Below, one piece after another: positions 8,093 to 53,404 of a stretch of 64,000 bases of DNA. Position 1 is the first letter of the stretch; the number at the start of each line of letters is the position of its first letter. The stretch lies in the IMG/VR virus record IMGVR_UViG_3300025892_000017. The stretch is one strand, 5' to 3'. The notes beneath the pieces were generated by a model. The model did not search any database and was not told the origin of the DNA. It worked only from the letters and a program-made list of their open reading frames with translations. The stretch is from an uncultured virus (IMG/VR IMGVR_UViG_3300025892_000017). Its lineage: Duplodnaviria; Heunggongvirae; Uroviricota; Caudoviricetes; Crassvirales. Position numbers and translations under genes: made by a program.

Positions 8093-8689
8093 ATGAAAAC
8101 CTTTAATTTATTTGTCGTTAAGTTGGAAAATAGACTTAAGGATACAATTACTTCAGAGAGTGGGTTTGAGTTATACGTTGATGCTAAATTTGACGACTTT
8201 AAAAACAGGACAACAGAAGGGCCTGTTGTATGCACACCGTTTAAATACGACACAGGGGTAGAAGAAGGGGATACACTCTATTTTCATCACTTAGTAGTTC
8301 TAGGTGGGGATAATAACGGTCAGATATTTACTCAAGAAGATAATACTTATATAGTAAACTACGACCCTGACCACGCGATTTCTAATCAAGCTATAGCATA
8401 TAAAAGCCAGAAGGATGGGAAGATACGGTGTCTAACGGGATGGTGTTTATTAAAATCAGTAGAGCAAGAAGAGTTAAGCCTTCAGTCAGATCTTATAGAG
8501 ATAGTAGATTTAACAGAGAAGTTACCTACCAAAGGGGAAGTAGCTTACACATGTAAAGAAGCTGATGAAATAGGAGTTCTCCCAGGAGACGTAGTGGGAT
8601 TTAAACAAAACAGAGACTATCGTATAACTATAGACGGGGTGGAGTATTACCGTACCCGTGCAGAAGACTTAATGTATGTCGAAATCTAA
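8093..8689 (+). CDS. Co-chaperonin GroES-like protein with two tandem Cpn10 domains
   Basis: TSESGFEL...GPVV...GVEEGDTLYF in the first half; GEVAY...GVLPGDVVGF...IDGVEYYRTR in the second. Confidence 0.7.
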   Translation: MKTFNLFVVKLENRLKDTITSESGFELYVDAKFDDFKNRTTEGPVVCTPFKYDTGVEEGDTLYFHHLVVLGGDNNGQIFTQEDNTYIVNYDPDHAISNQAIAYKSQKDGKIRCLTGWCLLKSVEQEELSLQSDLIEIVDLTEKLPTKGEVAYTCKEADEIGVLPGDVVGFKQNRDYRITIDGVEYYRTRAEDLMYVEI

Positions 8690-9779: not shown

Positions 9780-9968
9780 ATGGCAGAATATAAATGTGAG
9801 TGCAAAGATGAAATTGTAAGCAAATCAGGGGTTACAATAAGGCACATCGAGGGTAAGGGTGTGATACACGACATTAAGTGTGAGGATTGCGATAAGTATA
9901 TGACGTTAGCCAACCCTAAATCAGGCGCCCCAGGGTTTAGATCTAACAGATATGGTCAGACGTTTTAA
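9780..9968 (+). CDS. Small zinc-ribbon protein
   Basis: MAEYKCEC...KCEDC; start taken at ATG 9780 rather than 9687. Confidence 0.6.
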   Translation: MAEYKCECKDEIVSKSGVTIRHIEGKGVIHDIKCEDCDKYMTLANPKSGAPGFRSNRYGQTF

Positions 9969-34356: not shown

Positions 34357-35237
34357 TGAGTATGAACAAAGTAAAACTTAGCCAGATTATAAAGGATTTT
34401 ATAATAACCTCTGATGGGGATGATTACGCTAATAACGTATCAGATTTTGCTATAAGAAACTTTGCTTTAAGAGGTATACGGGAGATTGGGTTCGATCTAG
34501 GTAAAAAGATTAAATCTATAAAAAGGACTATTGATACTACCAATGATACTATCGCTCTTCCAGACGACTTCGTAGATTTGCTTAAAGTAGGTATTGTTGG
34601 GGCTGATGGAGTAATTCATGTACTTAACCAAAACAAACATATAAACTACTCTAGACAGATATTACAAGATGAAACTGCTGGGACTACTGTTGATAGTGTT
34701 ACTGTAGATGATGATACTATAAATACTAATATAAGCGATGAAGGTCCTTTAAATATTAATTCAAACCTAATATTAAATAGACAAGCATCCAAAAGCTCTA
34801 CTACAGGCTCTACAACCAATTCTGATGACCAAGACTTCTATGTGTTTGAGAATTATCTCTATCAAGGGGGCTCAGGGCGCTTATATGGCATCGGAGGGGG
34901 TCATGCGGTAGGGCAGTATAGGTTGAATCTAGATGAGGACAGAATAGAGCTTAAAATGGGTAGTTCAGGTTCTTCTGAAGTCGTGTTAGAATACATAGCT
35001 GATGAGGCGAGATCTACCGATCCAGAAGTGCATGTTTATGCAGAGGAGGCCTTACGTAGTTATATGTACTATAAGATAGTAGAAAGAAAGTCTAGTGTCC
35101 CATCAAATGAAAAGGCTAGAGCTAGAGCAGAATATTACAATGAGAGAAGAAAAGCGAATGCTAGACTAAGCAACTTCACGAAAGAAGAAGCGCTAAGTAC
35201 TATACGCAGAAACTTTAAGCAAGCGCCTAAGTACTAA
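34356..35237 (+). CDS. Tail ring/adaptor protein
   Basis: RGIREIGFD, LPDDFVD, VVLEYIAD and AEEALRSY. Confidence 0.65.
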   Translation: MSMNKVKLSQIIKDFIITSDGDDYANNVSDFAIRNFALRGIREIGFDLGKKIKSIKRTIDTTNDTIALPDDFVDLLKVGIVGADGVIHVLNQNKHINYSRQILQDETAGTTVDSVTVDDDTINTNISDEGPLNINSNLILNRQASKSSTTGSTTNSDDQDFYVFENYLYQGGSGRLYGIGGGHAVGQYRLNLDEDRIELKMGSSGSSEVVLEYIADEARSTDPEVHVYAEEALRSYMYYKIVERKSSVPSNEKARARAEYYNERRKANARLSNFTKEEALSTIRRNFKQAPKY

Positions 35238-38200: not shown

Positions 38201-41200
38201 AGGGTTGCTGGGCCTGAATTTACAGGGACTATAAACTCAAGGTATATCATGACGCTTGACGGTTTAGTTTCTTTAAACATCCCTCAACTTCAACCTTCTA
38301 GATCTTTTATCCCTCTTATGCAAGGGGAGCCTACCTTAGGATTAGGGGCGGGTTCAAACCTTAATGATTTTCCTTACTCTTATTATTATAGCCAAGGAGC
38401 AGACTGGCCTTTTGTAATAGATTTCCCTCAAAAACATTCTTATATAGAAATATTAAACCTTGCTTTTCTTTATCTACCTGGAGGCGGAACAGCTGTTTTT
38501 GATCAAAACTCTGCAGCAGATAGGACGTTTAAAAGTAACGCTGACCACGACTTCGGAATAATTTATTATGATGAAAGAGGACGACACGGGTTTGTAAACC
38601 ACCTAAAGACGGTTTATGTACCAGGATATTCTGCAGCAGAAAGATTAGGGGCATTGCACGGGAGAAGCATAATAAACTTAACGCTTAATCACGCTCCTCC
38701 TAAATGGGCTTATTATTATAAATTAGCTTATACAAAGAACACTAGTGTACAGAACTTTGTTCAATATTCAGCTGGAGGAGCATTTGTTTTACCCGATAAT
38801 ACAGGGACTGCAAATGTTAGCAGCACTCTTATATATGTATCTTTAAATTACCTGCAAGAAAGCTCTATATCTTATGTTGCTGAATGGGGGGCTAGATCTC
38901 CAGAAGGGGGGCTAAGTATGTTTAAATATATAGATGGGGTTAATCAAAAATTAAGAATAATCTCTGCTTATACCGACAGTGAAAATAGAGATTTCTTTTT
39001 TAACTACGAGTTTGATATTGTTAATATAGTCCTTCTAGGTGAAACAGACAACCCTTTAGGTGGGGATGAAACTGAACCTGAAAAGTTGGGGGAGTTTGTT
39101 GTTTTAAAAAACAATCCTAATGCAGATGGTTTTAATTATGCTTCTGTAGTTGACGGGTCTTCTAAATGGGATAACAACTGTATAATAGAGTTATTTACAC
39201 CCGCTAGAGATAGAGATGAAGAAAGTAGATTTTACTATGAGATAGGTGATACTTATAATGTTAATAATCCAGAGACAGATAGTGCTACTCACAGTATAAC
39301 AGATATCACATTAGATAAAGGCGATGTATGGTGGAGAAGGGTTCCTGTAAATTTAAGGGAATATAGTAGTGGGGATTTTCAAGATTTAATTTTAGACAAC
39401 ACTACTCTGACTGAAAGTAGTTCATCCTCTAACTTTAAACCTTATTATCTAGAGACAGAAACAGCCTCAGATTTATTTAAAGCGGATGCTACACTAATAG
39501 GGAGGCCTAATATAATTCTTGAAGACGCTGTAGAAACTATAAGAGAGGCTAGTATAACATATTCAGGGCAAAGCAACCCTAACTCTAGTAAGATAAACTA
39601 CTCATCATTTAACCTCACTCTATCTAACTTTAAAGATTTACAAGAGGAATTTGGAGATATTAACTATATGTGCAATATGGAGGGGGACGTATTCGTTATA
39701 CAGTCAGATAGATGCACCCTTGTCCCAGCTAGTAAAACCTTATTCTCAGATGTGTCTGGTACCGATACGGTGGCCGCTTCGAAGAGTCCTTTAGGTCAAG
39801 AAAGAGTATTTGCAGGTAGAGCTGGATGTGATAATAACCCAGAGTCTGTAGTACAAGTCGGGGCGTTTGTATACTTCGCTCATAAAAACCTAGGGAAGGT
39901 CTATAGATTTAACCCTTCTAATGGGGTGCAAGAGATCTCAGACCAAGGGATGGCATCTTACTTCAGAGGTATATTTAAAAACGCTATTTCGCAATCAATG
40001 TATTTAAACTACGATGACGTTAGGGTAGTTGGTGGATTCGATCCAGTAAACCAAGAATATCTACTTACCGTTCTAGACCCTTTAACTTACGGGGTTATAC
40101 CAAGTGGTGGATCAGGTGAATTTGGTGGTAACGAAGGTGATGATAGTGCAAGCTCAATAACGGTAAACTCTTTAGAGCAGCAGGTACGTAATATCCTAGA
40201 GGCTATTCTTACTACAGAAGATGACAACGGAAATCTTATATTTAACGAAGCCGATCTTCCAGTTCCTTTGCTAGACTTTTATAAAGGGGAGGAAGATTTA
40301 GACCTTAATGACGACGGGGTGTTTAGTGCTAACGAAGTAACAGATGTTGCAGTTATTAAAAGCGGTTTAGACAGTGGTATAAGCGAGTTGATAGAAGGTA
40401 TTTCTACGTCTTTAACTAATAATGATTTAAGTCTTATACATGATGCGATTACGGATACTTCTGTCCCAGAAACTGTTGATGGTGTAATAAACTATATAAA
40501 CGGTTTAATATCCGCAGGAAACGTTTCAGAAGATGAAGCTCAGCTTTTCCAGCAACATATAAATTCTATTACAGGAGATATTCAAAATCTTATGGGCAAG
40601 TTATCTACTAAAGGGCAATCTTACTTCCCTTATTCTGTTCCAGGTGGTGGTTTTGGTACGATTGCTGGTGCTTTTAATTCTCCATCCGAGTTTATGAATG
40701 TCTTTAAGGATGGTGGGATTTACCCATTGTCGGAGATATTACAAAACGCAAGTGCCGTTTCAGACGCTTTGGAGACGATTCAGTATGCAGTTGCAAATGT
40801 TAATCCTGATCCACGAGGGTTATATGATCCAAGTAGAACAATCTATCAAGGTGACGATCAAATTAGTTACACACCTTTACATTCCATAGATCAGTTGAAA
40901 TTAAATGGGGATTTCTTTACTGGTTTTGCATCAAAGTTAGGGTTGATTATGACAGAAAGCGTTACTGACGATGAAGGCTCCACCCTTAATGTAGCCGAAC
41001 AGTTTATAGCAGATACATTCTTAAGTGCTGTATCAGCAGAGGCTCTTAGTAACATACAGTATAGCGATATTAGCGGTAATCAGGAGTTATTGGCTCTGGT
41101 ATTCGGAAATATTCCACTTGACCAAATTCCTGAAGGTTTAGTTACTATAATAGAAAATGCTTATCTATCAGGAAATGAAAACCTCGATTATGCCCCAAGC

Positions 41201-41800
41201 AACCCTCCTTTATCTGCAGCTATCTTAGAAGAGCATAGAGGAGACATTGTTACAGATATAATATATAACTATACTCAAATTTACCCAAGTCTTTTACCTG
41301 GCTTACAAGCGTTTATGACTAACAATAATATCACAAGCCAAAACGATTTGGTTATTTACATTCAGGCGTTGCAAGATAACGAAACAGCGTTAAATAATTT
41401 TATAGACGCTTATTCAGTATCTTCACTGGATGAATTAAGTAATTATATTCAAGGGTTAAGCGCAACTGATCAAAGTGTGCAAAATTTACTAAATTCTATT
41501 GACGGTGTAAATACTATAGGAGATTTACAAGGTTATATAGACAATTTAGCAGCAAACCAAGGTGAAGGGTATAGCTCTTTAGAGATGGCTTTACAAGCGG
41601 AGGGGATAAGTATAAGTCAGCTACGCAATCTTATACAGCAAATTGCTATATCTGAAGGCACAACTACAACTACTGTTATGTCTGATTTAAATACTGACGG
41701 ATCAATCGGGAGTGCTGACTTAATAATGTTTTTAACAACAGTTGGGACGAGTACCAATATAGATTATAGTCAAGGTTACACAGATTTAAATTTAAACTAA
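35237..41800 (+). CDS. Tail stabilisation (P22 gp10-like/muzzle) protein, N-terminal part, with helical extension
   Basis: DALN, YFTDNTNEPRKIN, AQSVVDNRLMYGNY, FGIIYYDERGR, GCDNNPES and GGFDP motifs. Confidence 0.75.
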   Translation: MAIDKITPIRLDKSSDYKLVPKTSMVDALNMLITEDESDGGDVTTGNLGVLKNLKGNQVIEYVSGNGVGGENAKIIGSVTDTKLKIVYFFVWSDNINEHGVYAYDQLGKLPGVGDSAGRIVRIHKSNLYNFPEHGFVKGNIVYTSQSRLNQNPGGPIKPGTEKDFEKDTILYFTDNTNEPRKINVYMAMSNVDNSYSLPDRIDFITACPKTPLTPIVFEFDSDQTRTTSNFKSGPGFQFAYQFISKDGVESAISPYSDIAFSPGIINQGGLTTVNHALHNRCVLTIPEAGAEIESIRILARQFNNPELVVLDEVSNTEGQENWVPNARAYFFYNDRIVRGVSTNEVNKQFDNLPRKAQAQSVVDNRLMYGNYLEGFNNVKIDPPCGDVVSFEERGVELIDLVVKLIPAISEQQWAYNVEYGSDSVDPNNLGVDEPQSDGARNKSAGYIIDCQEMPLDITTGDVFNVSVTISPNNNFHLYQATDSYHQSRHRGAFQQFTEYQVDYSMGPEDGSWDGGDFGGNTGDSTPWVNAEGEDNAFYGHQGLDRSGANWIKDRIPNPILEGEGMYIGGEYDSWGIPYSGNNHGVSGNTVMGVDGTGPDAPKWKTVLGGEAGGIPKRVNFGTSAGNPLIIKGAPLTFSCKIKALANIEGDGRAALSSAISQALTGQAITWGGGGILETVEAETEVIYDLDLDEIDDGKQITEDNYLSKLIVGVVEDEIGGEEGGTIYKAPIGHFIVKKADVMFYLEKDEPFSAINPKFEMLRLCIGGMENVETYSVFKKKFYNSPWFAFSKDYLEDINLEVFFTDTSYGFSSASGAVHGTLFQYDEENTLADWDYIFDNITDQNNPDDLDVNNNFLATPVQIAGLETSFTGESLGDGTPYYTLLNNLAKLQEQRFLGYLDFDQSINQFFRFNKSQYESQPRLSGLKEIFPFSLVDGEGGMGGNLSHNLENGAGSVNLSSHPRRMDFVETLVDSAIAGATQDQLIRTIRVAGPEFTGTINSRYIMTLDGLVSLNIPQLQPSRSFIPLMQGEPTLGLGAGSNLNDFPYSYYYSQGADWPFVIDFPQKHSYIEILNLAFLYLPGGGTAVFDQNSAADRTFKSNADHDFGIIYYDERGRHGFVNHLKTVYVPGYSAAERLGALHGRSIINLTLNHAPPKWAYYYKLAYTKNTSVQNFVQYSAGGAFVLPDNTGTANVSSTLIYVSLNYLQESSISYVAEWGARSPEGGLSMFKYIDGVNQKLRIISAYTDSENRDFFFNYEFDIVNIVLLGETDNPLGGDETEPEKLGEFVVLKNNPNADGFNYASVVDGSSKWDNNCIIELFTPARDRDEESRFYYEIGDTYNVNNPETDSATHSITDITLDKGDVWWRRVPVNLREYSSGDFQDLILDNTTLTESSSSSNFKPYYLETETASDLFKADATLIGRPNIILEDAVETIREASITYSGQSNPNSSKINYSSFNLTLSNFKDLQEEFGDINYMCNMEGDVFVIQSDRCTLVPASKTLFSDVSGTDTVAASKSPLGQERVFAGRAGCDNNPESVVQVGAFVYFAHKNLGKVYRFNPSNGVQEISDQGMASYFRGIFKNAISQSMYLNYDDVRVVGGFDPVNQEYLLTVLDPLTYGVIPSGGSGEFGGNEGDDSASSITVNSLEQQVRNILEAILTTEDDNGNLIFNEADLPVPLLDFYKGEEDLDLNDDGVFSANEVTDVAVIKSGLDSGISELIEGISTSLTNNDLSLIHDAITDTSVPETVDGVINYINGLISAGNVSEDEAQLFQQHINSITGDIQNLMGKLSTKGQSYFPYSVPGGGFGTIAGAFNSPSEFMNVFKDGGIYPLSEILQNASAVSDALETIQYAVANVNPDPRGLYDPSRTIYQGDDQISYTPLHSIDQLKLNGDFFTGFASKLGLIMTESVTDDEGSTLNVAEQFIADTFLSAVSAEALSNIQYSDISGNQELLALVFGNIPLDQIPEGLVTIIENAYLSGNENLDYAPSNPPLSAAILEEHRGDIVTDIIYNYTQIYPSLLPGLQAFMTNNNITSQNDLVIYIQALQDNETALNNFIDAYSVSSLDELSNYIQGLSATDQSVQNLLNSIDGVNTIGDLQGYIDNLAANQGEGYSSLEMALQAEGISISQLRNLIQQIAISEGTTTTTVMSDLNTDGSIGSADLIMFLTTVGTSTNIDYSQGYTDLNLN

Positions 41801-42810
41801 TGGGGAAGTACACAGGAAAAACAATAGCATTTTCACATAAAGGTGGGTTCTGGAAAACCAGATATAGCTACACCCCTACTTGCTATGCGGCTATAGATAA
41901 CGTTATGATAACTAATAATACAGGAACTAGCTACAGTAATGAGTTATTCTGGGAGCATGAGGTTAATCCTACACACAATAATTTCTACGGGGAAGCCTTT
42001 TCTTCTTCTTTAACTATAGTCTCTAATCAAGATCCTAGCGCTGTAAAGATATTTAAGGCTTTATCTTTAGAGAGTAACTCTAATGCTTGGGTAGGGCAGG
42101 CAAGCACACATGTGCATCAACTTCCCGATGGAACTAATGAGCTTCAGTTAGGAAACTTACAAGCCTTTATAACTAAAGAAGGTAATCAATATAGCGAACT
42201 CCCTAGATCTATAACTAATTCTAGCAGTCATATAGAATATGTATGTTCACTAGACAGTATAATCGATGAAGATTCTGAAATATTTAATCCAGAGTTCGAA
42301 ACATTATCTAGCGCTTGGGATGTTTCTGTCTTAACTACTCCAAACGTTGCTATTTTAGGTGGGAGTGGATCGACAGCTTTGTTTGTAGATAGTGCTAACG
42401 ATGCTTACTATTTAACTGTTTCTGATAATATTTGGGGGTTATCTCTATTTACAGCAGATTCTTCAGTAAACGGTGCTGCATATATTTATAATTACAACAG
42501 CGATGATACTATAACATTTTCTGTAATCGCGCAAATTAATGCTGAACTTTTTATTGATGCAATAAGCCTTGCGTTTGAGAACACTGGTAACTGGAGTAAC
42601 GGTATTCAACTTTTTAGCGCTTCAGATCCAGCTATAAACGGGGATCCTATGAGAGGGCAATATTTAAGATTGGATTTAGTCAATAACTCAACTACCCCTG
42701 TAGAAACATACGCTATAAACGTAGACTTCGAGAATACCAAGTTAGACCATAGTAAAGTAGCGAAGAAGAAAACTACTGGTAATAAAAAGGCCTCCCCTAC
42801 TAAAAAGTAA
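41800..42810 (+). CDS. Probable C-terminal part of the tail stabilisation protein, encoded separately
   Basis: TIAFS..GFWKTRYSYTP, HE...NNFYG, KIFKALSLES, KEG and GDPMRGQY. Confidence 0.6.
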   Translation: MGKYTGKTIAFSHKGGFWKTRYSYTPTCYAAIDNVMITNNTGTSYSNELFWEHEVNPTHNNFYGEAFSSSLTIVSNQDPSAVKIFKALSLESNSNAWVGQASTHVHQLPDGTNELQLGNLQAFITKEGNQYSELPRSITNSSSHIEYVCSLDSIIDEDSEIFNPEFETLSSAWDVSVLTTPNVAILGGSGSTALFVDSANDAYYLTVSDNIWGLSLFTADSSVNGAAYIYNYNSDDTITFSVIAQINAELFIDAISLAFENTGNWSNGIQLFSASDPAINGDPMRGQYLRLDLVNNSTTPVETYAINVDFENTKLDHSKVAKKKTTGNKKASPTKK

Positions 42811-44010: not shown

Positions 44011-45659
44011 TGGCTAATTACAATTACGTAGCCCCTATACAGTACAAGAGTTATTCAGACATGAATAAAGAGCGCCTTGCTGCGAAAGCGGCAAAGGAGG
44101 CGGCTGGTCTCAAGCAAAAATCTGCAATAGATACACGTAAGCAGAAGTTTTACGATAAGATGACTGGGTATAAAACAGCTGGTTGGTCAGATTATCATAG
44201 GGATGAATATAATATGCAGGTCCAAAGGGCTCTTTCAGAAGTGGCTTTAAGCCCTAACCCTGATTACGCGGGCATATCTAATGCTATTATACGTATGCAA
44301 GAAATAGGGGATAACCACGCAAAGTTAAGAGACGGACAGACTGAATATAACTCTTATATGGGGGAGAACGCACCTAACTACGATGCTGATTTAGATTGGG
44401 GTATGAGTGCTACTCATGATAAAAAAGGGTACGATGAAAGGCTTAGAACATTTAACACATTAGGGTTGTTAAACTATAGTAACGGAAAAGGAGACTTTCC
44501 TAACCCGAACTACGACCCATCAGCTGCAGAAGGTACAGCAGGGAGTTTTAAGTCTATGAGAGATCTACTTAATAGTGAGGGTGTCGAGATACAAGTTTCT
44601 AACGGACGCGAGGTTTACGCTGATGAAAACGGTCAATTAAAACCAATTAGCGGGAGTGCTTTTGATGTAGCTACCGAACAGTTTTCTGGGTTGTGGAACC
44701 CTACCCTAAGCGCTATTAATAATATAACTGCTGAGGATGCCTTTTTTGGTTACTCCAACATGCCAGGGGGAAAAGCTAAATTTGAAAATCATGCCATTAC
44801 TTTAAATAAACAAGTGGGTGATAAGGAGATTACTTATGAAGCTGCTAAAGAAAACTTAAAGGCGGATATATTAAACTACGTCGATCCAGATGGGGTGAGT
44901 CCAGATAGGGCTCTTATATCTTCTGCTATAACAGCTTACAATGAAGATACTGGACAGACTTGGGATGATGCTGGGACTAATGAAGCTTTGATAAACACAT
45001 ATGGTACTCCATGGGATTATTTTGCGGATAAGATGGTAGCTGTAGCTAACCTTGATGATCCAGATGAACCGTCAGGTGGAAGTATGAGCGAGACTATGAG
45101 ACAAAAATGGGCGGCTTTTTATAGTAAGCCTTTAGATACCCCTAACACAAAGTTCACAAGAACGCCAGTAGGTACAGAAGGGTACAATTGGGGGAAAGCT
45201 TTAGAGTACTATGAAGGAGATGTAGATGTATCTAAAATAGTAGGGAAGATAGATGAAGTTGACGAGGATGGAAATATCACAGGGACTAAAACAGGGCTTA
45301 AAGAAGATTTAGGGGAGGGTGTTAGAATAGGTATGGGGCAAGCAGATTTAAAGTATGATAATGTGCCTGTTCAATCAATAGAAATATTTGATGAAAAGAA
45401 TATAGTTATAGTATATGCTAGTGAATACATTATAGGTGATGTTGGTTTAGATGTAGGTGAAGAAGGTAGCCCGTGGAGATATAATCCATTATTCGGTGGA
45501 AGAGTAGGTGTTGCTCCTTTTAGGATAATAAACCTAACAAATCCAGATGGTACCGAGCATGACGATATGGAAACTCTAAGGAACCAATTTCGAAGAACTT
45601 ACGGAGGATCCGACCCCCTTCAACAAAAAATTATAGAAGCAGAACAAGCTAGAGAGTAA
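44010..45659 (+). CDS. Putative internal virion/ejection protein
   Basis: 549 aa; lies between the tail genes and the giant protein. Confidence 0.5.
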   Translation: MANYNYVAPIQYKSYSDMNKERLAAKAAKEAAGLKQKSAIDTRKQKFYDKMTGYKTAGWSDYHRDEYNMQVQRALSEVALSPNPDYAGISNAIIRMQEIGDNHAKLRDGQTEYNSYMGENAPNYDADLDWGMSATHDKKGYDERLRTFNTLGLLNYSNGKGDFPNPNYDPSAAEGTAGSFKSMRDLLNSEGVEIQVSNGREVYADENGQLKPISGSAFDVATEQFSGLWNPTLSAINNITAEDAFFGYSNMPGGKAKFENHAITLNKQVGDKEITYEAAKENLKADILNYVDPDGVSPDRALISSAITAYNEDTGQTWDDAGTNEALINTYGTPWDYFADKMVAVANLDDPDEPSGGSMSETMRQKWAAFYSKPLDTPNTKFTRTPVGTEGYNWGKALEYYEGDVDVSKIVGKIDEVDEDGNITGTKTGLKEDLGEGVRIGMGQADLKYDNVPVQSIEIFDEKNIVIVYASEYIIGDVGLDVGEEGSPWRYNPLFGGRVGVAPFRIINLTNPDGTEHDDMETLRNQFRRTYGGSDPLQQKIIEAEQARE

Positions 45660-48600
45660 TGCCACATATAGAAGGACACATAGAAGAACCACAGGTTCAA
45701 GGAGATCCACAAGGATTAGATTATCAAGCTATATATCAGAAGTACTACGATAAAGGCTTTGATATAGAGAAAGCTACTAGGAAGATGCGTGTATTGTACG
45801 GTGCTAAGCAGCCTGAACTTGATGCATTAAATGCTTTCTATGAGAGTAAAAAAAAAAGTCAAGACGGTACTACAGCCTCGGACTCCAGTTCGGAGACGGT
45901 TTCTACGGTATCTACCTCAGGTACAGCTACTTCGACAGGGCAAGAGAATGGAGATACGGATTCTCCTTTAGCCGCACCTGAACCTTTATCCCCTCAATTA
46001 TACGATAGTGTAAAAGGTACTCCCGTGCCTTGGACAGGCATTCAAATAGCTCAAGCTGAAGTTATAGGTCAATCCAGACCAGAGAATTGGGAGGATATAT
46101 ATAGAAGTAGGTTTGGAGAGGGTGAAGTACATCAGCTCGATACAAAGAAGCTATTTTCAGAGCAAAGAGATTCTGAGATTATGGGGGATTTAAACCTCCT
46201 TGAGATTGATGCTTTTGATAGGTGGTACAATAAAAAACTAGAGGACGGTAGAACTAAAACATTAGTTGATCAGTATTTAAACTTAGACTCAAAAGAGATT
46301 GTACAACTGAAGGGTCGGCTTGAAAACAATCTCGTTAGCAAGCATGGTATAAAAGACAGTATTATGGAGATGTTTGCTGCTCTAGAGGATGCTCCTGAGG
46401 GTCAACTAACTCACCCAGGGTTTGTAAGGAAGTACCAGCTTGGAGTAGATAAAACTTCAAAAAAGTCCTTAAAGAAAGTAGAGAACGACTTCGGGAATTT
46501 CTATAGAGATATGGTAAAGGCTTCTTTACCTTATAGCGTTCAGCAGAACGAAAGTCAGCTAAAAGACTTAGAGTATTACTTTAAGTACGGTAATGGCGAT
46601 ATGTTTGATTTTACTGAGGATGGAGAGATAGGTAACCAAACGTGGTGGAGCCAGACTCAACTTACTGGTGAGGTAGCTGGGATGACATTAGTCAATAAAT
46701 TGGCTTTTCTAGGTAGTAGAGTAGGTGGATGGATGGCCGATACATTTGCGGATATATCTAAAAATCCCAACCGTATGTCTGGTGTTATGGGGGATGCTAT
46801 AAGAAGCGGTGCAGAAACTGACATACGAAAGAGAGAGAAGGCTTTAGAGGAGATTAGGGAGAAGATGAATGCTTTTGAAGCGGGGATATCTAAAAGTTAC
46901 GGGAAGTTTTTCACAACAGGAGACCTTACAGCTTTAAATAATGCTTTAGAACAATCGTGGTACATGGCGGTAGAAGCCTCTCCGCAGATAACTATGGCTG
47001 TGGCGGGAGGAGCTATGGGTATGGGACCAACAGGCCTTGCTTTACTCTTAACTGCAGACGGGACAATGCAAGAAGCCATGATGATAAGGAATGATATATC
47101 CTTTGATGACTTCGTAAATAAGAAAAGCTTACCTATTATTGAAAAGCTTAAAGAGGATATTGATGCGATACTAAAAGTAAGAGAAGGGGAAGGAGGTGAA
47201 GAAAACTACAAGGGGAAGGAATTACAAGCGTTAAGAGAGCTTTTTAAAAAAGAACTTAAAGAATCAAGATTAAGTTACAGCGAAGCCTTATCTACTATAG
47301 AGGTTGGGGAGGGTGATACTCAAGAAGATATAGAGAATAAACTTAAAGCGATATACAATATAGAGGTTAATCAATCTAACAGAACGATGTACCTAAGTAG
47401 TACGGCTGCTATGGATTTCGCGGCGGATAGAGTTATGTTCGGGATATTTAGACGAGCGTTTAGAGGCGCTGACTTTAAGCAGAATGCTACTATAAAAACC
47501 TACGCTAAAAACCTCCTTAGAGGATCAACCATAGCGTTACCAGAATCTGCTATACCTACATTTCTTAGCATGCTTAACAGAGAGTATCAAAAGGCTGAAT
47601 ATACTGACTCGGATTTCGATGCGCAACAAGCTTTTGAAGCAGCGTTAGATGTAACGTTAGGTATGGCTCCTCTAGGCCCTATGATGCACACTGGAGGTAG
47701 TTCATTGGCTTATACTAAACATCTAGGGAGGTCTAGAATTGGACCAGATGGGACGAATGTTTATCACCGCAAGATAATTGATGAGTTAAATAAAAAGGCT
47801 TCAGATCCTGATGTTAACTCTAAAGACAGAGAGAAAGCTATAAAACTTGCAGCGAAGTTTAAGAAAGACGGGGTGTTGATTTTTGAGAAGAACACAGCTC
47901 TGTATGATTATATAGGTAAGAAAGATCCAGCTTCGTTAGACGAGATAGCTAATCTTAACTTGCAAGCGGAAGGCCTTCTTAGAAGCTTAAAAGATGTAGA
48001 AGACCCTAACGTTAAAATGCTAATGAGGGATGAGCTTGCTAGTATAATAAGCAAGAAGTCCAAAGTAGAAGCAGAGTTTAAAGAAGGCTTTGAAGCTCAG
48101 TACGACCACAGCTATGTACGTCAGAAGTTTGAGGATAAAGGGGGGAAGGAAGGAATAGTGGAAGTTAAAGCTGATGACCCTGTAGTTAAAGCTGACGAAC
48201 CAGATGCCGATCCATTAGTGAAACCTGATGATAGTGAAGCCCCACCCGTTAAAGAGGCTGAAGAGGGTGATGCAAGGATGGGTGACGATACAGAGGGTGT
48301 TGTAGCGGAAGAAAGGAAGTTAGTAGACATTAAAGGTGGGAGAGTAAGACAGTTCCTTAGAAACACCTTCAGGAGCGATGCGGGTATAGGAGGGAATAGA
48401 GGTTTAAAGTTTTGGAAAAAAAGATCAGGGGCGAGAGAGAAAGTTGCTGAGACTATTCGTGGGAGAGAAAGAGAGATGAGAGTCATGACTAATCAATTAG
48501 GTTTAGACCTAAACGTTCTAGACGCTTTATATAAAGATGCTGAGTTTGATATTAACGGGAAGAAAACAGGGAAGAACGAGTACAACAGACGTAAAGAGGA

Positions 48601-51241
48601 GTTAAATAAATATATGAATGGGGAGGAGGCTCGTATAGCGTTTTTAAGCGATGCTCAGAAAGCTAAGTTAGATTACCTAAGGGCAAGAGTAGATGGTTTG
48701 TCTGGTGAGATGATAAGGTTACTGGAAGAGAACCCTACACCTAAAAACAAAGCCTTAATAGAGACTATCAGAAACAATCAAGGACAATACCTTAAAAGAA
48801 GTTATGAGGCCTTTACTGATGATGGGACTTGGATAAAAGATTTCAATAAACCACTCAATAAACTCTCTAAAACAAAAAAGAAACTATACGACGATGCGGT
48901 ACAGTATGTTATGGATAATTTTGCTGAAGGAGACCGCGTACATATATTAGAGGAAACAGTTCCAGGATCAAAAAAAGCAAAAGCAGAAACAATAGTAACT
49001 GGATATCTTCAAGATTTATATAGTAAATTAGACAGTAAAAGTTTTATAACTGGAACTGGCTTAATAGGGGCGTTAGACTCTAAGATTCTTAGCGGGCGGA
49101 AAGATATACCTGCCCCCTTTAGAAAACTATTAGGGGAGGTAGAAAACGTAAGTTTTAACTACGTTAACACAGTACACAGGTTGGCTGGATATGTAGCAGA
49201 CCTTTCTTTTCAAAAAGTATTAAGGGCAGACCTGCTTGAAGCGGGGTTAGCTATAGAAGGTAAAGGGAGACAAGGTTCTGTAGAGTTTTCTCCAGGAGCC
49301 GCCTTTAGCGGGCTGGATGGATTATATGTAGATCCAACTTTTAAATCTATGTACGATAGTATGATGCCTTTAACTTCAAATCCAAGTAAATTCTGGCGTA
49401 CTCTCTCTCAAATTCAAGGTGTGGTAAAGATTGGTAAGACGGTATATTCTCCTACTACAACTTCTAGAAACCTTTTAAGTGGTATTTTCTTAGGGTTTAA
49501 CTCAGGGCATTTATTTTCTACTGACCTAGGGAAAGCTTCCGATGCAATGAAATTAGCTTGGGGGGTAAAAGAAGGGATAGATGTAAACTTTATGACAAGA
49601 GAGAGAGATAAGCTTATGAGGTATGGGGTTATCGGAGATGGAGCTAGAGCTGGAGAGGTTATGGGGCTGATGCGTGACTTCACTGACGCAACAGAAGCAC
49701 AAAGGATAGCACAGAAATCTGGGGGGAGTAAACTCAGAAAGGCAACCAGAAAGGTTAACGATGCAGCTCAGAGACTATATGCTTTTGGTGACGATTTTTA
49801 CAAAGCTACAGGATTTTATACAGAAGCTCAAAGGTTTATGGATAGTGGAATGGATAGAGCTACGGCGGAGAAAAGAGCTGCTGAACGTATTCGCGGGGGT
49901 TACCCAACATATTCTTATATCCCTAGAAATATAAAGTGGTTAAGACGTTTCCCTCTTACGGGTATGTTTGTCTCTTTCCCTTACGAGGTGTACAGAACTA
50001 CAGCTAACAATATGAGGTATGCAGCACAAGATTTTGCGGAGGGAAGGCATAAGATGGGGATGCAAAGGATGGCGGGTATGGCTACAGCTCAAGCTTTTGG
50101 ATTCGGGATGTTTAGTGCAACAAAACAGATCTGGGAATACACTGAAGAGGAGCTTGATGCAATAAGGCTTTTAGGTCCAGAGTACCAGAAAAATTCACAA
50201 CCTATTTTCCTGCCTAGAGGGGATGCTAATGAGATAAAATTCATAGATGCTCAAGCGATACTACCAAATGAGGCTATATGGAAACCTATAAGATCTTTAA
50301 TATTACAAGGAGATCCTAAGGATGAGAACTATGTAGACGGTATAGAATCAGCAATATCTGAAATTCTAGCTCCATTTTATGCTAAAGACGCTACAGCGAA
50401 ATTAGTGCAGGAATTATTGACTAACAGAAGAGAAGGCAGCGATCAACCTATATACTATTGGGATCAAGATATGAACCCTCTTGAGAATGCTTTAAATAAC
50501 ATCCCAGACTTAGGTAGACAGATATTAAAAGGTGTAGGTCCTGGAGCATACAATAACTTAGAGGAGTTTTTCCGAGCTACTGGGATTTCACCTGAGTTAT
50601 TTGGGGAGAAGTCTACAGTATATAAAGAGACTAAAATGAATGAGTGGATACTTGGGTTATTTGGTTTCCGTGTAAACACGTTTGATATGAGAGCAGGAAT
50701 CCTTCCTAAGATATACGAGGATAGCGAGGATCTTAAAAAATACACTAACTTCAACCTAAGCAATAAAGACATAAGGTTACTATCTGATAAACCTGTAGAG
50801 TATTTAAAGAAGGTAGCTGATCAATATGTAAATAAACAAATAGAGGTAGCGAAAAGGGTTCAAGTTTACCCTAACGTAGCTATGGAGGCGGGGCTTGAGC
50901 AAGAGAAATTAATAACTACGTTAGTAAATAGCGGTCTCTCAAAAAAGAACGCAGGTATACTCGTAGCGAATGCTATAGAAGGTACGAACTTACCTCAGAA
51001 CCCGAAGTACATAAGCCTTAGCCGTATAAAAAGTGTATTAACATCTGTAAAAGACGCTCACAGGGGGACCAAAGCAGAGTTAAAAGAAAAAACAGATGCG
51101 GTTATGGAGGCTATGTTCTTATCTAACGTAATGATTATCCAGAAATGGTCTGAGCAATTTGAGGATTACGATATAAAGAATGACGAAGAGGAAGACAATC
51201 AATACTTCCGTGGACAATACTTAAACAGAAATAATGAGTGA
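45659..51241 (+). CDS. Large internal virion (ejectosome-type) protein
   Basis: 1860 aa, helical; TM-like MAVAGGAMGMGPTGLALLL; YLKRSYEAF and PTYSYIP..LRRFPLTGMFVSFPYE motifs; last large structural gene. Confidence 0.6.
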   Translation: MPHIEGHIEEPQVQGDPQGLDYQAIYQKYYDKGFDIEKATRKMRVLYGAKQPELDALNAFYESKKKSQDGTTASDSSSETVSTVSTSGTATSTGQENGDTDSPLAAPEPLSPQLYDSVKGTPVPWTGIQIAQAEVIGQSRPENWEDIYRSRFGEGEVHQLDTKKLFSEQRDSEIMGDLNLLEIDAFDRWYNKKLEDGRTKTLVDQYLNLDSKEIVQLKGRLENNLVSKHGIKDSIMEMFAALEDAPEGQLTHPGFVRKYQLGVDKTSKKSLKKVENDFGNFYRDMVKASLPYSVQQNESQLKDLEYYFKYGNGDMFDFTEDGEIGNQTWWSQTQLTGEVAGMTLVNKLAFLGSRVGGWMADTFADISKNPNRMSGVMGDAIRSGAETDIRKREKALEEIREKMNAFEAGISKSYGKFFTTGDLTALNNALEQSWYMAVEASPQITMAVAGGAMGMGPTGLALLLTADGTMQEAMMIRNDISFDDFVNKKSLPIIEKLKEDIDAILKVREGEGGEENYKGKELQALRELFKKELKESRLSYSEALSTIEVGEGDTQEDIENKLKAIYNIEVNQSNRTMYLSSTAAMDFAADRVMFGIFRRAFRGADFKQNATIKTYAKNLLRGSTIALPESAIPTFLSMLNREYQKAEYTDSDFDAQQAFEAALDVTLGMAPLGPMMHTGGSSLAYTKHLGRSRIGPDGTNVYHRKIIDELNKKASDPDVNSKDREKAIKLAAKFKKDGVLIFEKNTALYDYIGKKDPASLDEIANLNLQAEGLLRSLKDVEDPNVKMLMRDELASIISKKSKVEAEFKEGFEAQYDHSYVRQKFEDKGGKEGIVEVKADDPVVKADEPDADPLVKPDDSEAPPVKEAEEGDARMGDDTEGVVAEERKLVDIKGGRVRQFLRNTFRSDAGIGGNRGLKFWKKRSGAREKVAETIRGREREMRVMTNQLGLDLNVLDALYKDAEFDINGKKTGKNEYNRRKEELNKYMNGEEARIAFLSDAQKAKLDYLRARVDGLSGEMIRLLEENPTPKNKALIETIRNNQGQYLKRSYEAFTDDGTWIKDFNKPLNKLSKTKKKLYDDAVQYVMDNFAEGDRVHILEETVPGSKKAKAETIVTGYLQDLYSKLDSKSFITGTGLIGALDSKILSGRKDIPAPFRKLLGEVENVSFNYVNTVHRLAGYVADLSFQKVLRADLLEAGLAIEGKGRQGSVEFSPGAAFSGLDGLYVDPTFKSMYDSMMPLTSNPSKFWRTLSQIQGVVKIGKTVYSPTTTSRNLLSGIFLGFNSGHLFSTDLGKASDAMKLAWGVKEGIDVNFMTRERDKLMRYGVIGDGARAGEVMGLMRDFTDATEAQRIAQKSGGSKLRKATRKVNDAAQRLYAFGDDFYKATGFYTEAQRFMDSGMDRATAEKRAAERIRGGYPTYSYIPRNIKWLRRFPLTGMFVSFPYEVYRTTANNMRYAAQDFAEGRHKMGMQRMAGMATAQAFGFGMFSATKQIWEYTEEELDAIRLLGPEYQKNSQPIFLPRGDANEIKFIDAQAILPNEAIWKPIRSLILQGDPKDENYVDGIESAISEILAPFYAKDATAKLVQELLTNRREGSDQPIYYWDQDMNPLENALNNIPDLGRQILKGVGPGAYNNLEEFFRATGISPELFGEKSTVYKETKMNEWILGLFGFRVNTFDMRAGILPKIYEDSEDLKKYTNFNLSNKDIRLLSDKPVEYLKKVADQYVNKQIEVAKRVQVYPNVAMEAGLEQEKLITTLVNSGLSKKNAGILVANAIEGTNLPQNPKYISLSRIKSVLTSVKDAHRGTKAELKEKTDAVMEAMFLSNVMIIQKWSEQFEDYDIKNDEEEDNQYFRGQYLNRNNE
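45848..45857 (+). other. A10 homopolymer, candidate slippage or -1 frameshift site
   Basis: The -1 frame opens immediately after TAA 45847 and runs to TGA 45981. Confidence 0.5.
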
Positions 51242-51674
51242 TAAAAAGAAAATAAAATACACTAAGCTAGGTGCTTGGTTAGCAAATAAAGCACCACAAG
51301 TGCTGGGTGTAGTAGGAGACCTTCTACCAGATAGCGGGGCGCTAGGCGTGGTTAAAAACCTTATAGACAAAGATGATAGTGTTGACTCCGAGGAGGCTCA
51401 GCGTATGATCGATGCAGAGGTACGCTTCCAAGAGAACGTTACAGAACGTTGGAAAGCAGACATGGGCAGTGATGTAAAGCTTGCAAAGCTAATACGACCA
51501 CTTACCCTTATCGCTCTGATGACTATGTTTATGTTTACAATGGTAGCTGACTCTATGGATGGGTGGCCTTTTAATGTAAAGGACTCTTATGTAGATCTAC
51601 TACAGATCCTTATGATGACCGCCTTTGGAGCTTACTTCGCAGGTAGAACCATAGAAAAAGCTAAAAAGCCTTAA
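51234..51674 (+). CDS. Holin (3TM/GTA-type)
   Basis: RWKADMGSD..LAKLIRPLTLI...AYFAGRTIEK with hydrophobic helices. Confidence 0.75.
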   Translation: MSDKKKIKYTKLGAWLANKAPQVLGVVGDLLPDSGALGVVKNLIDKDDSVDSEEAQRMIDAEVRFQENVTERWKADMGSDVKLAKLIRPLTLIALMTMFMFTMVADSMDGWPFNVKDSYVDLLQILMMTAFGAYFAGRTIEKAKKP

Positions 51675-52965: not shown

Positions 52966-53404
52966 TTTTCATGGATTTTTTTATCTCTAAGACACATTGA
53001 TCTACTTGTCTCTTATTTTTAGCCAAATATACGTCATAACCTAGCTTATTATCCATAATATGCTTTAAAAATATCTTCCACCTCATAGGAAAATCATGAT
53101 GAGAAGGTAAATACCCTTTTGTTTCTATGATCCACTTAGAATCCTTACCTACAAAATCAGGTGTATACCTAATAGGCTGTTGAATAGAATTACTTCTATC
53201 AATCATATCCTTTTTCTTTGCAGTCATTTTAAAATACTTATGTTCAAATCTAAAGGAATCCATTAGAACAAACTTGTCTTCTTCATAAGTGAAAGCTATC
53301 CCAGATTCACGTAACTTATCTGAACAATACTTCTCTAGAGAGCTCTTAAACTTTCCTAGAGATTTTTTTTTAGATTTAAGTTTCTTTTTTAGTTTCTTTT
53401 GCAT
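52955..53404 (-). CDS. T7 endonuclease I-like Holliday junction nuclease
   Basis: FKSSLE, FTYE, YTPDF and IIETKG. Confidence 0.75.
   Translation of the reverse strand: MQKKLKKKLKSKKKSLGKFKSSLEKYCSDKLRESGIAFTYEEDKFVLMDSFRFEHKYFKMTAKKKDMIDRSNSIQQPIRYTPDFVGKDSKWIIETKGYLPSHHDFPMRWKIFLKHIMDNKLGYDVYLAKNKRQVDQCVLEIKKSMKNEQ

What the first reader, a model, noticed from the sequence alone, without database searches (positions are those of the whole stretch)
45659..45981. Hidden frameshift product of the giant ejection gene: A10 slippery run opens an aromatic three-beta-strand tail
Seen: codons 64-66 (KKK) lie in an A10 run (45848-45857). The -1 frame is closed by TAA at 45847, contains no ATG, and from 45850 reads KKKSRRYYSLGLQFGDGFYGIYLRYSYFDRAREWRYGFSFSRT-stop (45981). 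13 of the 40 residues after KKK are aromatic, arranged as three alternating strands with turns, like outer-membrane beta-hairpins. The 0 frame here is a low-complexity S/T linker with six TCG/ACG codons, which look unusual in this AT-rich genome; five of them supply the first G of -1 frame Gly codons, suggesting dual-coding selection. Established: A9-A10 runs cause transcriptional slippage and A-AAA-AAA can support -1 ribosomal frameshifting. Inference: one gene makes both the 1860-aa protein and a ~106-aa isoform sharing its N-terminus. The isoform might oligomerise into a membrane beta-pore for DNA ejection or act in exclusion. Caveat: S/T-rich linkers tend to give Tyr and Phe in the -1 frame anyway.
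Basis: partly seen in the sequence, partly recalled or inferred. Interest (0 to 1): 0.85.

Follow-up and report, generated by a model that had tools for sequence, protein, structure and literature searches.

The report
Poly-A slip site hides second protein
A run of ten A's near the start of a giant phage-particle gene is kept in dozens of related marine phages together with a second, overlapping reading frame, so the gene very probably also makes a short protein with a basic, aromatic tail that normal annotation misses.

Summary
An A10 run (45848-45857) codes KKK at codons 64-66 of the 1860-aa virion gene, and the start-less -1 frame stays open to 45981.

I examined 45 homologous loci from uncultured marine phages and cultured Pachyviridae and Pervagoviridae. 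Of these, 38 carry exactly A10 in two codon registers, 3 carry A11 in a third register, and 4 related isolates carry A9 with the gene split at the run. The 11 other KKK sites in 14 of these genes are all broken by an AAG.

Over the roughly 40 codons after the run, 0-frame synonymous variation collapses. The 0-frame pN/pS is 1.00 and the -1 frame pN/pS is 0.62. Every flanking window shows the opposite pattern. The -1 peptide keeps a motif (G-x-Q/S-F-G-x-G-F-Y-G-x-Y-L ... W-R-F-G-F) and a stop soon after it. No conserved RNA structure explains the conservation.

The best reading is programmed slippage at the run, probably by RNA polymerase. It would give a product of about 107 aa: the N-terminal module plus a polybasic, aromatic tail.

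No RNA or protein evidence could be obtained. The tail's function is unknown, and the pore idea is untested. This is a new member of a known kind of recoding.

The parts
45659..51241 (+). Giant virion-protein gene (1860 aa), 0 frame. Its ATG overlaps the stop of the upstream 549-aa ORF by one base.
   Evidence: ORF list and translation. PHROG 22602 'virion structural protein', E=1e-126 over residues 1029-1761. No Pfam family and no PDB relative. 32.5-32.9% identical over residues 884-1761 to virion structural proteins of Cellulophaga phages.
45659..45847 (+). N-terminal module (63 codons), shared by the long and the proposed short product.
   Evidence: Alignments A1, A2 and A3. Non-homologous N-modules of 31-79 aa sit before the run in other lineages. 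No Pfam family reached its cut-off in 8 N-modules tested.
45848..45857 (+). A10 slippery run (KKK codons 64-66 plus the first base of codon 67).
   Evidence: A10 in 38, A11 in 3 and A9 in 4 of 45 homologous loci. 0 of 11 other KKK sites in the same 14 genes are all-AAA (Fisher P=2.2e-7, ignoring relatedness).
45850..45981 (+). -1 frame ORF: KKK, then a 40-residue basic aromatic tail, then TGA. It has no start codon and is closed upstream by TAA at 45847-45849.
   Evidence: Motif and stop position are conserved. pN/pS is 0.62 in this frame against 0.94-1.81 for the same frame in the flanks.
45857..45978 (+). Dual-coded zone: 0-frame codons 67-107. The Ser/Thr-rich 'linker' of the giant protein overlaps the -1 tail.
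   Evidence: Synonymous differences fall to 0.15-0.21 from 0.27-0.58. The most variable position is 0-frame position 2, which is -1-frame position 3. 0-frame pN/pS is 1.00 here against 0.41-0.69 in the flanks.
45831..45971 (+). +1 frame ORF (46 aa from an ATG; 37 codons after the run). It is open but shows no coding signature. It would be read from transcripts one A short.
   Evidence: pN/pS is 1.10 in the overlap.
51234..51674 (+). Context: holin-like gene directly downstream. The giant gene is the last gene of the structural block.
   Evidence: PHROG 3427 holin, E=8e-23. Terminase, portal and structural genes lie upstream.

Best explanation
The A10 run is a programmed slip site kept by selection. 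Most transcripts carry ten A's and give the 1860-aa virion protein. On a fraction of transcripts the RNA polymerase reiterates one A, giving A11. Ribosomes then read KKKK and pass into the -1 frame. They add a 40-residue polybasic, aromatic, glycine-rich tail and stop at 45979-45981. The product is about 107 aa and shares the 63-residue N-terminal module with the giant protein.

The Ser/Thr-rich 'linker' of the giant protein is largely the 0-frame shadow of this tail-coding sequence.

Shown: the run, the frames, their conservation, and the selection signature on the -1 frame.

Inferred: that the shift happens during transcription rather than on the ribosome (my split is about 3:1), how often it happens, and what the short form does.

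My guess for function is a small partner that uses the same N-module as the giant protein (same docking or packaging partner), with a cationic aromatic tail that binds membrane or DNA. This guess is weak.
For: (1) Run conservation. 45 homologous loci were found with patterns that did not include the run or in isolate records. Of these, 38 have exactly A10, 3 have A11 and 4 have A9. The run sits in three codon registers: AAA AAA AAA A, xxA AAA AAA AAA G and xAA AAA AAA AAA G. This is not expected if only the amino acids KKK mattered.

(2) Codon-usage control. It holds even in genes that prefer AAG. The AAA share of Lys codons is 0.20 in L012, 0.36 in L003, 0.38 in L018 and 0.35 in L022. The 11 other KKK sites in the same 14 genes are each interrupted by AAG (Fisher P=2.2e-7).

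(3) Rarity of such runs. In 13 loci of 13-21 kb the run is the only A-run of 9 or more.

(4) Synonymous constraint. Synonymous differences drop to 0.15-0.21 exactly over codons about 56-105. Pairwise differences by 0-frame codon position are 0.266/0.336/0.276 in the overlap against 0.47-0.49/0.39/0.59-0.62 in the flanks.

(5) pN/pS in the overlap. Frame 0 is 1.00, frame -1 is 0.62 and frame +1 is 1.10. The -1 value is below all 213 windows outside (minimum 0.77). The 0-frame value is above all of them (maximum 0.77). Bootstrap P(-1 >= 0) is 0.028. In 5 of 5 separate pairs the -1 ratio is lower in the overlap than in the flanks.

(6) Replication in other clades. L005/L006 give 0.21 (-1) against 2.17 (0). 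L007/L013 give 0.38 against 1.28. L002/L009 give 0.55 against 1.31. An anchored block of 11 further loci gives 0.76 against 1.05.

(7) No own start. The -1 ORF has no ATG/GTG/TTG and opens only 3-42 nt before the run in 13 of 13 register-2 loci. In 16 of 16 register-1 loci a T before the run makes TAA in that frame.

(8) Conserved tail. The tail has 16 invariant columns against 6 in the N-module. All 41 tails are basic (+5 to +10) and 15-37% aromatic.

(9) No RNA structure. RNAalifold gives -3.85 kcal/mol, with 1 of 16 pairs compensatory.

(10) Precedent. Poly-A tracts in tssM1 (11 A's) and tssM3 give two length variants by transcriptional slippage at about 15-25%, and in tssM3 the recoded product is the shorter one (PMC4256274, passages). 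The RNA-DNA hybrid is 9-10 bp (PMC5009743, figure legend passage).
Against: There is no direct evidence of slipped transcripts or of the peptide. All runs on offer were contigs, and the RNA contigs do not cover the run.

The selection statistics are rough. They use uncorrected NG86 proportions with pS up to 0.77, and the pairs are related to each other. The bootstrap intervals overlap (-1: 0.42-0.89; 0: 0.69-1.61). In 2 of 5 separate pairs the -1 ratio was not lower than the 0-frame ratio within the overlap (0.59 against 0.58; 0.77 against 0.66).

In the register-2 group, plain peptide identity does not separate the frames (0.31, 0.33, 0.27). Poorly aligned pairs give no signal. In the third group a 0-frame-guided alignment gave 0.89 for both frames.

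The loci were chosen by a tail pattern, so they are biased towards a conserved tail, though not towards a run.

The +1 frame is open too.

Four isolates have A9 with the gene split. That fits a slippery site, but it could also be a sequencing error or DNA-level variation.

Nothing here separates polymerase slippage from ribosomal slippage by experiment.
Confidence: 0.6

Rival explanations
1. The products are the same, but the shift is made by the ribosome: -1 programmed frameshifting on A_AAA_AAA, or sliding on the poly-A stretch, on ordinary A10 transcripts.
For: An A_AAA_AAA heptamer lies in the correct 0-frame register in all three run registers. All the comparative evidence for a translated -1 ORF fits this equally well.
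Against: Seven A's would be enough, yet 41 of 41 intact loci keep 10-11 unbroken A's and none uses A_AAA_AAG. That this heptamer is the more efficient one in E. coli is my recollection, not a call. No conserved downstream RNA structure was found. The run length matches the 9-10 bp RNA-DNA hybrid.
Confidence: 0.2
2. The run is mainly a DNA-level switch (replication slippage, phase variation). Phage populations would mix A9, A10 and A11 genomes, which uncouple the N-module from the giant body or swap tails.
For: Four related isolates (phi13:2, phi18:3, phi19:3, phi46:3) are recorded with A9, and there the N-module ORF runs into the +1 frame and the giant frame has no upstream start. Long homopolymers are mutable (general knowledge).
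Against: 41 of 45 loci are in the 'on' register. The one DNA contig laid across the run showed no gap there. A pure switch does not need a -1 ORF under purifying selection with a conserved motif and stop. A9 may be a homopolymer undercall. I recall, but could not verify, that these 2013 genomes were pyrosequenced (papers not held). However, phi38:1, which I recall (not verified) comes from the same sequencing project, has A10.
Confidence: 0.08
3. The conserved block is a nucleic-acid element (RNA structure, recombination linker for swapping N-modules, or another DNA signal) and the -1 frame is never translated.
For: The nucleotide block after the run is far better conserved than either flank. 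N-modules are exchanged exactly at the run between phi13:2 and phi19:3/phi18:3.
Against: No consensus structure and almost no covariation were found. Variation is periodic, with its maximum at -1-frame third positions. pN/pS is below 1 only in the -1 frame. The -1 stop follows the motif by 3-6 codons in all 41 loci, although the nucleotide sequences differ widely between groups. Recent transfer of the block would lower divergence but keep the usual 3rd>1st>2nd pattern, which is not what is seen.
Confidence: 0.08
4. Chance and composition. KKK is needed in the giant protein, AAA is the common Lys codon, and Ser/Thr-rich linkers give open, Tyr/Phe-rich -1 frames anyway.
For: AAA is 66% of Lys codons in this gene. 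A simple base-composition estimate of mine gives about 0.5 A10 runs per 64 kb. Both alternative frames are open.
Against: A10 is kept in AAG-preferring genomes and in three registers, while the other KKK sites avoid it. Four-fold degenerate third positions are invariant across sequences that are 27-28% identical as proteins. Rare NCG codons are enriched.
Confidence: 0.02

Closest known systems
Yersinia pseudotuberculosis tssM3 and Citrobacter rodentium tssM1 (transcriptional frameshifting on a poly-A tract; PMC4256274, abstract and passages read)
   Same: A run of A's coding Lys inside a long gene, RNA polymerase adding A's, and two products that share the N-terminus. In tssM3 the full-length form is the unshifted product and the shifted one is shorter, as proposed here. 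The reported frequency is about 15-25%.
   Different: There the shifted frame soon meets a stop and is not described as a conserved coding sequence. Here about 40 codons of the shifted frame are under purifying selection and are the best conserved part of the gene's 5' end. This case is a phage virion gene, found in 45 loci rather than two species. Nothing is shown experimentally here.
Thermus thermophilus dnaX tau/gamma (PMC5009743, passage read)
   Same: The long product is encoded in one ORF. Transcriptional slippage on an A-run gives mRNAs with extra bases, which end at nearby stops in the other frames and yield the short product.
   Different: In dnaX both non-zero frames simply terminate nearby. 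Here the -1 frame adds a conserved 26-52-residue tail.
Potyvirus P3N-PIPO (PMC5009743, passage read)
   Same: An overlapping, start-less ORF reached only by polymerase slippage at a short A-run. It was recognised by suppressed synonymous variation in the main frame.
   Different: That is an RNA virus polymerase with a GA6 site and a plant host. Here the genome is DNA, the run is A10-A11 and the host is bacterial.
Phage tail assembly chaperones G/GT and other phage -1 frameshift pairs (PMC5009743, passage read)
   Same: Two structural-module products share an N-terminus in a fixed ratio, and the arrangement is conserved across many phages.
   Different: Those use a ribosomal heptamer, and the shifted product is the longer one. 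Here the run is 10-11 A's, the shifted product is the short one, and the gene is a giant virion protein, not a chaperone.
Earlier notes of this scan on conserved A9-A11 slip sites in phage genes (e1-5349958, e1-5374676, e1-3346602, e1-5660641)
   Same: Conserved poly-A runs in uncultured phage genes, read as deliberate slip sites giving short and long forms.
   Different: Those are different gene families, and there the run ends or splits an ORF. Here it lies inside a continuous giant ORF with true dual coding. Those notes were not checked by me.

Membership tests
Programmed transcriptional slippage site (dnaX of Thermus, tssM1/tssM3, IS elements) | Homopolymer run of about 9 or more A/T in the coding strand | tested here: met
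   A10 at 45848-45857.
Programmed transcriptional slippage site (dnaX of Thermus, tssM1/tssM3, IS elements) | Run kept at the nucleotide level among homologues although synonymous codons would break it | tested here: met
   38 A10, 3 A11 and 4 A9 among 45 loci, in three registers. 0 of 11 other KKK sites are all-AAA.
Programmed transcriptional slippage site (dnaX of Thermus, tssM1/tssM3, IS elements) | mRNA population heterogeneous in run length while the DNA is not | tested here: inconclusive
   Only contigs were available. The RNA contigs of X17 stop at 45489 and resume at 45989, X16 gave none, and the DNA contig of X10 has A10.
Programmed transcriptional slippage site (dnaX of Thermus, tssM1/tssM3, IS elements) | Two protein products with a common N-terminus are detected | not testable with these tools
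   No proteomic data were reachable. The phi18:3 record marks only the giant protein as found by MS/MS.
-1 programmed ribosomal frameshift cassette (X_XXY_YYZ plus stimulator) | Slippery heptamer in the 0-frame register | tested here: met
   A_AAA_AAA is present in all three registers.
-1 programmed ribosomal frameshift cassette (X_XXY_YYZ plus stimulator) | Conserved stimulatory RNA structure a few bases downstream | tested here: not met
   RNAalifold on 11 sequences gave -3.85 kcal/mol, with 1 of 16 pairs compensatory. An upstream SD-like stimulator was not tested.
Overlapping (dual-coding) ORF reached by recoding, PIPO-like | Suppressed synonymous variation of the main frame exactly over the overlap | tested here: met
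   0.15-0.21 against 0.27-0.58. Third-position difference is 0.276 against 0.59-0.62.
Overlapping (dual-coding) ORF reached by recoding, PIPO-like | Purifying selection in the alternative frame, with conserved length and stop | tested here: met
   pN/pS in the -1 frame is 0.62, below all 213 outside windows. The result is replicated. Tails are 24-52 residues after KKK and end 3-6 codons after the motif.
Phase-variable homopolymer (contingency locus) | Run length varies between closely related genomes and switches the ORF on and off | tested here: inconclusive
   A9 with a split gene occurs in 4 related isolates, and A10/A11 in 41 other loci. No read-level data were available.
Giant virion structural proteins of Pachyviridae-like marine phages (PHROG 22602) | Sequence match to the family profile, and presence in virions | tested here: met
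   PHROG 22602, E=1e-126. About 33% identity to phi18:3 gp123 over residues 884-1761, which the record marks as structural by MS/MS. Virion presence of this window's own protein was not tested.

The most novel reading that the evidence does not exclude
Across a large group of marine Flavobacteriia phages, spanning at least two ICTV families and several uncultured lineages, the giant virion proteins carry a portable cassette. It consists of a swappable N-module, an A10-11 run, and a hidden -1 gene for a polybasic, aromatic tail. The tailed short form would be an obligatory partner of the giant protein, for example a membrane-inserting or DNA-binding factor that is packaged or acts at ejection through the shared N-module. 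In the Baltivirus and Bacelvirus isolates whose genomes read A9, even the fusion of the N-module to the giant protein would depend on polymerase slippage. One run would then feed three frames.
Probability: 0.25. Interest if true: 0.85.

Novelty: new member of a known kind. Interest (0 to 1): 0.72.

Why it matters
It adds a protein that no annotation of these phages lists. None of the five records with an annotated giant gene that I opened marks a slippage product.

It also shows that a stretch anyone would dismiss as a low-complexity linker is shaped by an overlapping gene.

The cassette is widespread in abundant marine phages of Flavobacteriia. It sits in cultured, non-pathogenic systems (Calle_1, Gundel_1, phi38:1). 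Infection RNA-seq is already public for phi38:1 (PMC5335546, passages). So the claim can be tested directly.

The short form may also be a handle on how these giant virion proteins are recruited or act.

It is a warning for gene callers and for dN/dS scans of phage genes. It also raises the question of whether the split gene in four isolate genomes is an error or a real dependence on slippage.

My searches found no paper describing it. The 2013 genome paper was not held and may bear on the A9 question.

Tried and rejected
- **blastn** of the 5' 742 bases against the phage records found no match.
- **The search for related loci** with the window's first 300 residues alone found no confirmed relative in viral contigs.
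- **Whole genome:** none is held for this window.
- **RNA evidence:** 24 runs were listed, all kept as contigs. Of four laid, X16 gave nothing. X17 (RNA) covers 45300-45489 and 45989-46137 only. X15 (probably DNA) starts 15 bases before the run. X10 (DNA) spans the whole stretch with A10. This says nothing for or against slipped transcripts.
- **Fold of the trans-frame product:** I dropped the fold, the fold search and any complex prediction, so the beta-hairpin or pore idea stays untested.
- **Peptide identity by frame** in the register-2 group does not separate the frames.
- **A 0-frame-guided alignment** of the third group gave equal ratios, until an ungapped anchored block was used.
- **Pfam on eight N-modules:** nothing reached a curated cut-off.
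- **PDB by sequence:** no match.
- **Earlier scan notes** by place and by sequence: none.
- **Two look-ups of the 2013 Cellulophaga phage paper:** not held. My recollection that those genomes were pyrosequenced is therefore unverified.
- **Script faults of mine:** the figures printed for register-1 loci are wrong, apart from the base before the run, because the TAA at the run start stopped the walk. In one search the frame labels for the other A9 runs are shifted by one. Neither is used.
- **Three of the 18 tail-pattern hits** (L053, L056, L059) have no run and no tail motif, and were dropped as chance matches.
- **Nine more distant homologues** of the C-terminal half (L015-L017, L019-L021, L023-L025) have no KKK or A-run near their starts. 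The cassette is therefore not universal in the wider family.
- **L026-L032** were partial matches and were not examined.

Full report
**1. What is in the window**

ORF 45659..51241 (+) codes an 1860-aa protein. Codons 64-66 are AAA AAA AAA, and with the first base of codon 67 they form an A10 run at 45848-45857. It is the longest homopolymer in the 64 kb.

The -1 frame has TAA at 45847-45849. It then reads KKK plus 40 residues and stops at 45979-45981. It holds no start codon. Thirteen of the 40 residues are aromatic, and the stretch carries a net charge of +7.

The 0 frame here is a Ser/Thr-rich stretch with six TCG/ACG codons. Five of them give the G of a -1-frame glycine codon. Such codons are rare elsewhere in the window: 8.6% of Ser+Thr codons, against 6 of 19 here (P=0.004).

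The +1 frame is open for 37 codons as well. Openness is therefore not the argument.

**2. What the gene is**

The window is a phage genome piece with these features:
- terminase (9968-12085), portal (12125-14563) and a GroES-like gene (8093-8689);
- structural genes, including a protein with a Crassvirus muzzle C-terminal domain (41800-42810);
- two giant ORFs;
- a holin-like gene directly after the giant gene;
- replication genes on the other strand.

The giant protein matches PHROG 22602 'virion structural protein' (E=1e-126). It has no Pfam family and no PDB relative. Its C-terminal half is about 33% identical to virion structural proteins of Cellulophaga phages phi18:3, phi13:2 and phi19:3. 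The phi18:3 protein is marked in the record as found by MS/MS in virions. 'Ejection protein' is thus an inference. 'Virion protein' is reasonably grounded.

**3. The run in homologues**

Twenty-five protein homologues (38-100% identical over the first 330 residues) all keep KKK. DNA was obtained in four ways, none of which used the run as a search pattern.

- *Viral contigs by C-terminal peptide patterns*. All 13 loci that have a KKK near the start code it as nine A's and have exactly A10. In these 13-21 kb loci it is the only A-run of nine or more, also at 45-48% G+C.
- *Metagenome contigs by N-terminal patterns*. 12 of 12 have A10.
- *Viral contigs by a 21-base pattern from the tail*. Of 18 hits, 3 are chance hits without run or tail. 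3 are the contigs already held. 9 are new A10 loci. 3 are new A11 loci reading CAA AAA AAA AAA G. All 12 new loci lie 31-70 codons into giant ORFs of 1471 to over 2749 aa.
- *Isolate records*. Calle_1 and phi38:1 (Pervagoviridae) and Gundel_1 (Pachyviridae) have A10 in an intact ORF.

The tally over 45 loci is 38 A10, 3 A11 and 4 A9. The 38 A10 loci split into 16 where the run starts at codon position 1 and 22 where it starts at position 3.

The control is sharp. The 14 genes with full sequence hold 11 other KKK sites, and every one is broken by an AAG. The AAA share of Lys codons in these genes ranges from 0.20 to 0.88 (Fisher P=2.2e-7, ignoring relatedness). Nine more distant homologues of the C-terminal half have no such site. 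The cassette therefore marks a clade, not the whole family.

**4. The -1 frame is a coding frame**

In 13 sequences of the window's own group, the share of identical-residue pairs that differ in codon falls from 0.27-0.58 to 0.15-0.21 over codons about 56-105. It then returns to the baseline.

Pairwise differences by 0-frame codon position are shown below.

| Region | Position 1 | Position 2 | Position 3 |
|---|---|---|---|
| Flanks | 0.47-0.49 | 0.39 | 0.59-0.62 |
| Overlap | 0.266 | 0.336 | 0.276 |

In the overlap the most variable position is the third position of the -1 frame. Four-fold degenerate third positions such as those of S74, S78, T80, T83 and T100 never vary.

Nei-Gojobori proportions give the following pN/pS values.

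| Region | Frame 0 | Frame -1 | Frame +1 |
|---|---|---|---|
| Overlap | 1.00 | 0.62 | 1.10 |
| Six flank regions | 0.41-0.69 | 0.94-1.81 | 0.92-1.08 |

Among 39-codon windows, the overlap has the lowest -1 ratio and the highest 0-frame ratio when compared with all 213 windows outside it. Bootstrap over columns gives P=0.028. In 5 of 5 separate pairs the -1 ratio is lower in the overlap than in the flanks. Within the overlap, however, it beats the 0 frame in only 3 of 5 pairs.

The result repeats in other groups:
- Well-aligned pairs of the second group give 0.21 against 2.17, 0.38 against 1.28 and 0.55 against 1.31.
- An anchored block of the third and fourth groups gives 0.76 against 1.05.

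Cruder measures did not separate the frames.

The peptide keeps a motif. In the window's group it is G-[LI]-Q-F-G-x-G-F-[YW]-G-x-Y-L-x-Y ... W-R-[FY]-G-F. In the second group it is a shorter F-G-I ... W-F-F-G form. The frame stops 3-6 codons after the motif. All 41 tails are basic (+5 to +10) and 15-37% aromatic.

The frame cannot be entered on its own. It has no ATG/GTG/TTG and opens 3-42 nt before the run in 13 of 13 register-2 loci. In 16 of 16 register-1 loci a TAA overlaps the start of the run.

A conserved RNA fold does not explain the block: -3.85 kcal/mol, one compensatory pair of 16. Recent transfer of the block would not invert the codon-position pattern.

**5. How it most likely works**

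The products are a long form from A10 transcripts and a short form of about 107 aa when one A is added.

I favour polymerase slippage over ribosomal -1 shifting, about 3:1, for four reasons:
- Ten or eleven unbroken A's are kept in three registers, where seven would do for a ribosome.
- No locus uses a G-ending heptamer.
- No downstream stimulator is conserved.
- The length fits the 9-10 bp hybrid.

Poly-A tracts (11 A's in tssM1) give 15-25% shifted product in tssM1 and tssM3. In tssM3 the shifted product is the shorter one.

This part is inference. The only RNA material on offer was contigs that do not cross the run.

The function of the tail is unknown. A cationic aromatic tail suggests membrane or nucleic-acid binding, and the shared N-module suggests a common docking partner. 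These are guesses.

**6. The A9 isolates**

phi13:2, phi18:3, phi19:3 and phi46:3 are recorded with nine A's. There the N-module ORF runs into the +1 frame. It is annotated as a separate small protein: gp126 in phi13:2, gp122 in phi18:3 and gp119 in phi46:3. The giant frame opens just before the run without a start. The aromatic tail sits in the third frame.

One added A would restore the arrangement seen everywhere else. This is either a homopolymer undercall or a real state that depends on slippage. The sequencing chemistry is my recollection and I could not check it. phi38:1, which I recall (not verified) comes from the same sequencing project, reads A10.

Between phi13:2 and phi19:3 the sequences are unrelated up to the run and nearly identical after it. 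N-modules are therefore exchanged at this point.

**7. Comparison and novelty**

The mechanism is of a known kind. Known examples are dnaX of Thermus, tssM1/tssM3, potyvirus PIPO and the phage G/GT pair. Earlier notes of this scan list other conserved poly-A sites in phage genes (unchecked).

What is new:
- the gene family;
- the true dual coding, in which the hidden frame is the more constrained one;
- the three registers;
- the breadth, covering two ICTV families and several uncultured lineages.

Eight literature searches found no description of it.

I file it as a new member of a known kind. It is well supported by comparison, unproven by experiment, and readily testable in cultured phages.

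Noticed in passing
L009:4677-4685, L010:5028-5036, L011:4842-4850, L048:1375-1383: Four related Cellulophaga phage isolates (phi13:2, phi19:3, phi18:3, phi46:3) are recorded with A9 instead of A10. The gene is therefore annotated as a small N-module ORF plus a giant ORF with an internal start. This is either a record error or a real dependence on slippage.
   Followed up: partly
L009 versus L010/L011, at the run: The N-terminal modules of phi13:2 and of phi19:3/phi18:3 are unrelated up to the run, while the sequence after it is nearly identical. Module exchange therefore happens at the run. Across all lineages the N-modules are of several unrelated types (31-79 aa). Many are built from a repeated 'Y..sFdEF'-like helix motif with no Pfam family.
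   Followed up: partly
L069, L084, L086 (run about 50 bases before the tail pattern): A small clade carries A11 (Gln codon CAA followed by three AAA). The tail is again in the -1 frame, and the N-module is only 31 aa, ahead of an ORF of more than 2700 aa.
   Followed up: partly
window 11433-11441, 28559-28567, 602-610 and 53363-53371 (T9): There are other runs of nine. One lies inside the terminase ORF. One lies 19 bases into the listed start of the 718-aa tail-fibre-like ORF. One lies upstream of the first large ORF. One is a T9 that is an A9 near the start of a minus-strand ORF. My quick frame check of them had an indexing fault and is not used.
   Followed up: no
window 41800-42810: A 336-aa protein carries a Crassvirus muzzle protein C-terminal domain (PF25729, E=2.2e-10). 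This links the tail module of this marine phage to Crassvirales.
   Followed up: no
window 35237-41800: There is a second giant ORF (2187 aa, PHROG 14478 virion structural protein) three genes upstream of the one studied. It has no Pfam family.
   Followed up: no
window 8093-8689: A GroES-like co-chaperonin gene (PHROG 13932, E=8e-45). Chaperonin cpn10 is listed as a core gene of Pervagoviridae in PMC8776804 (passage).
   Followed up: no
phage record NC_021806.1 52119-52571: The crAss-like Cellulophaga phage phi14:2 shares a 150-residue segment, 75.7% identical, with the phi13:2 giant protein. This suggests a mosaic module shared between unrelated phages of one host genus.
   Followed up: no
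phage record OR779980.1 34918-37461: The homologous C-terminal half in Pseudoalteromonas phage vB_Pun_Y3 is annotated as ADP-ribosyltransferase. No such domain was detected in the window's protein by Pfam.
   Followed up: no
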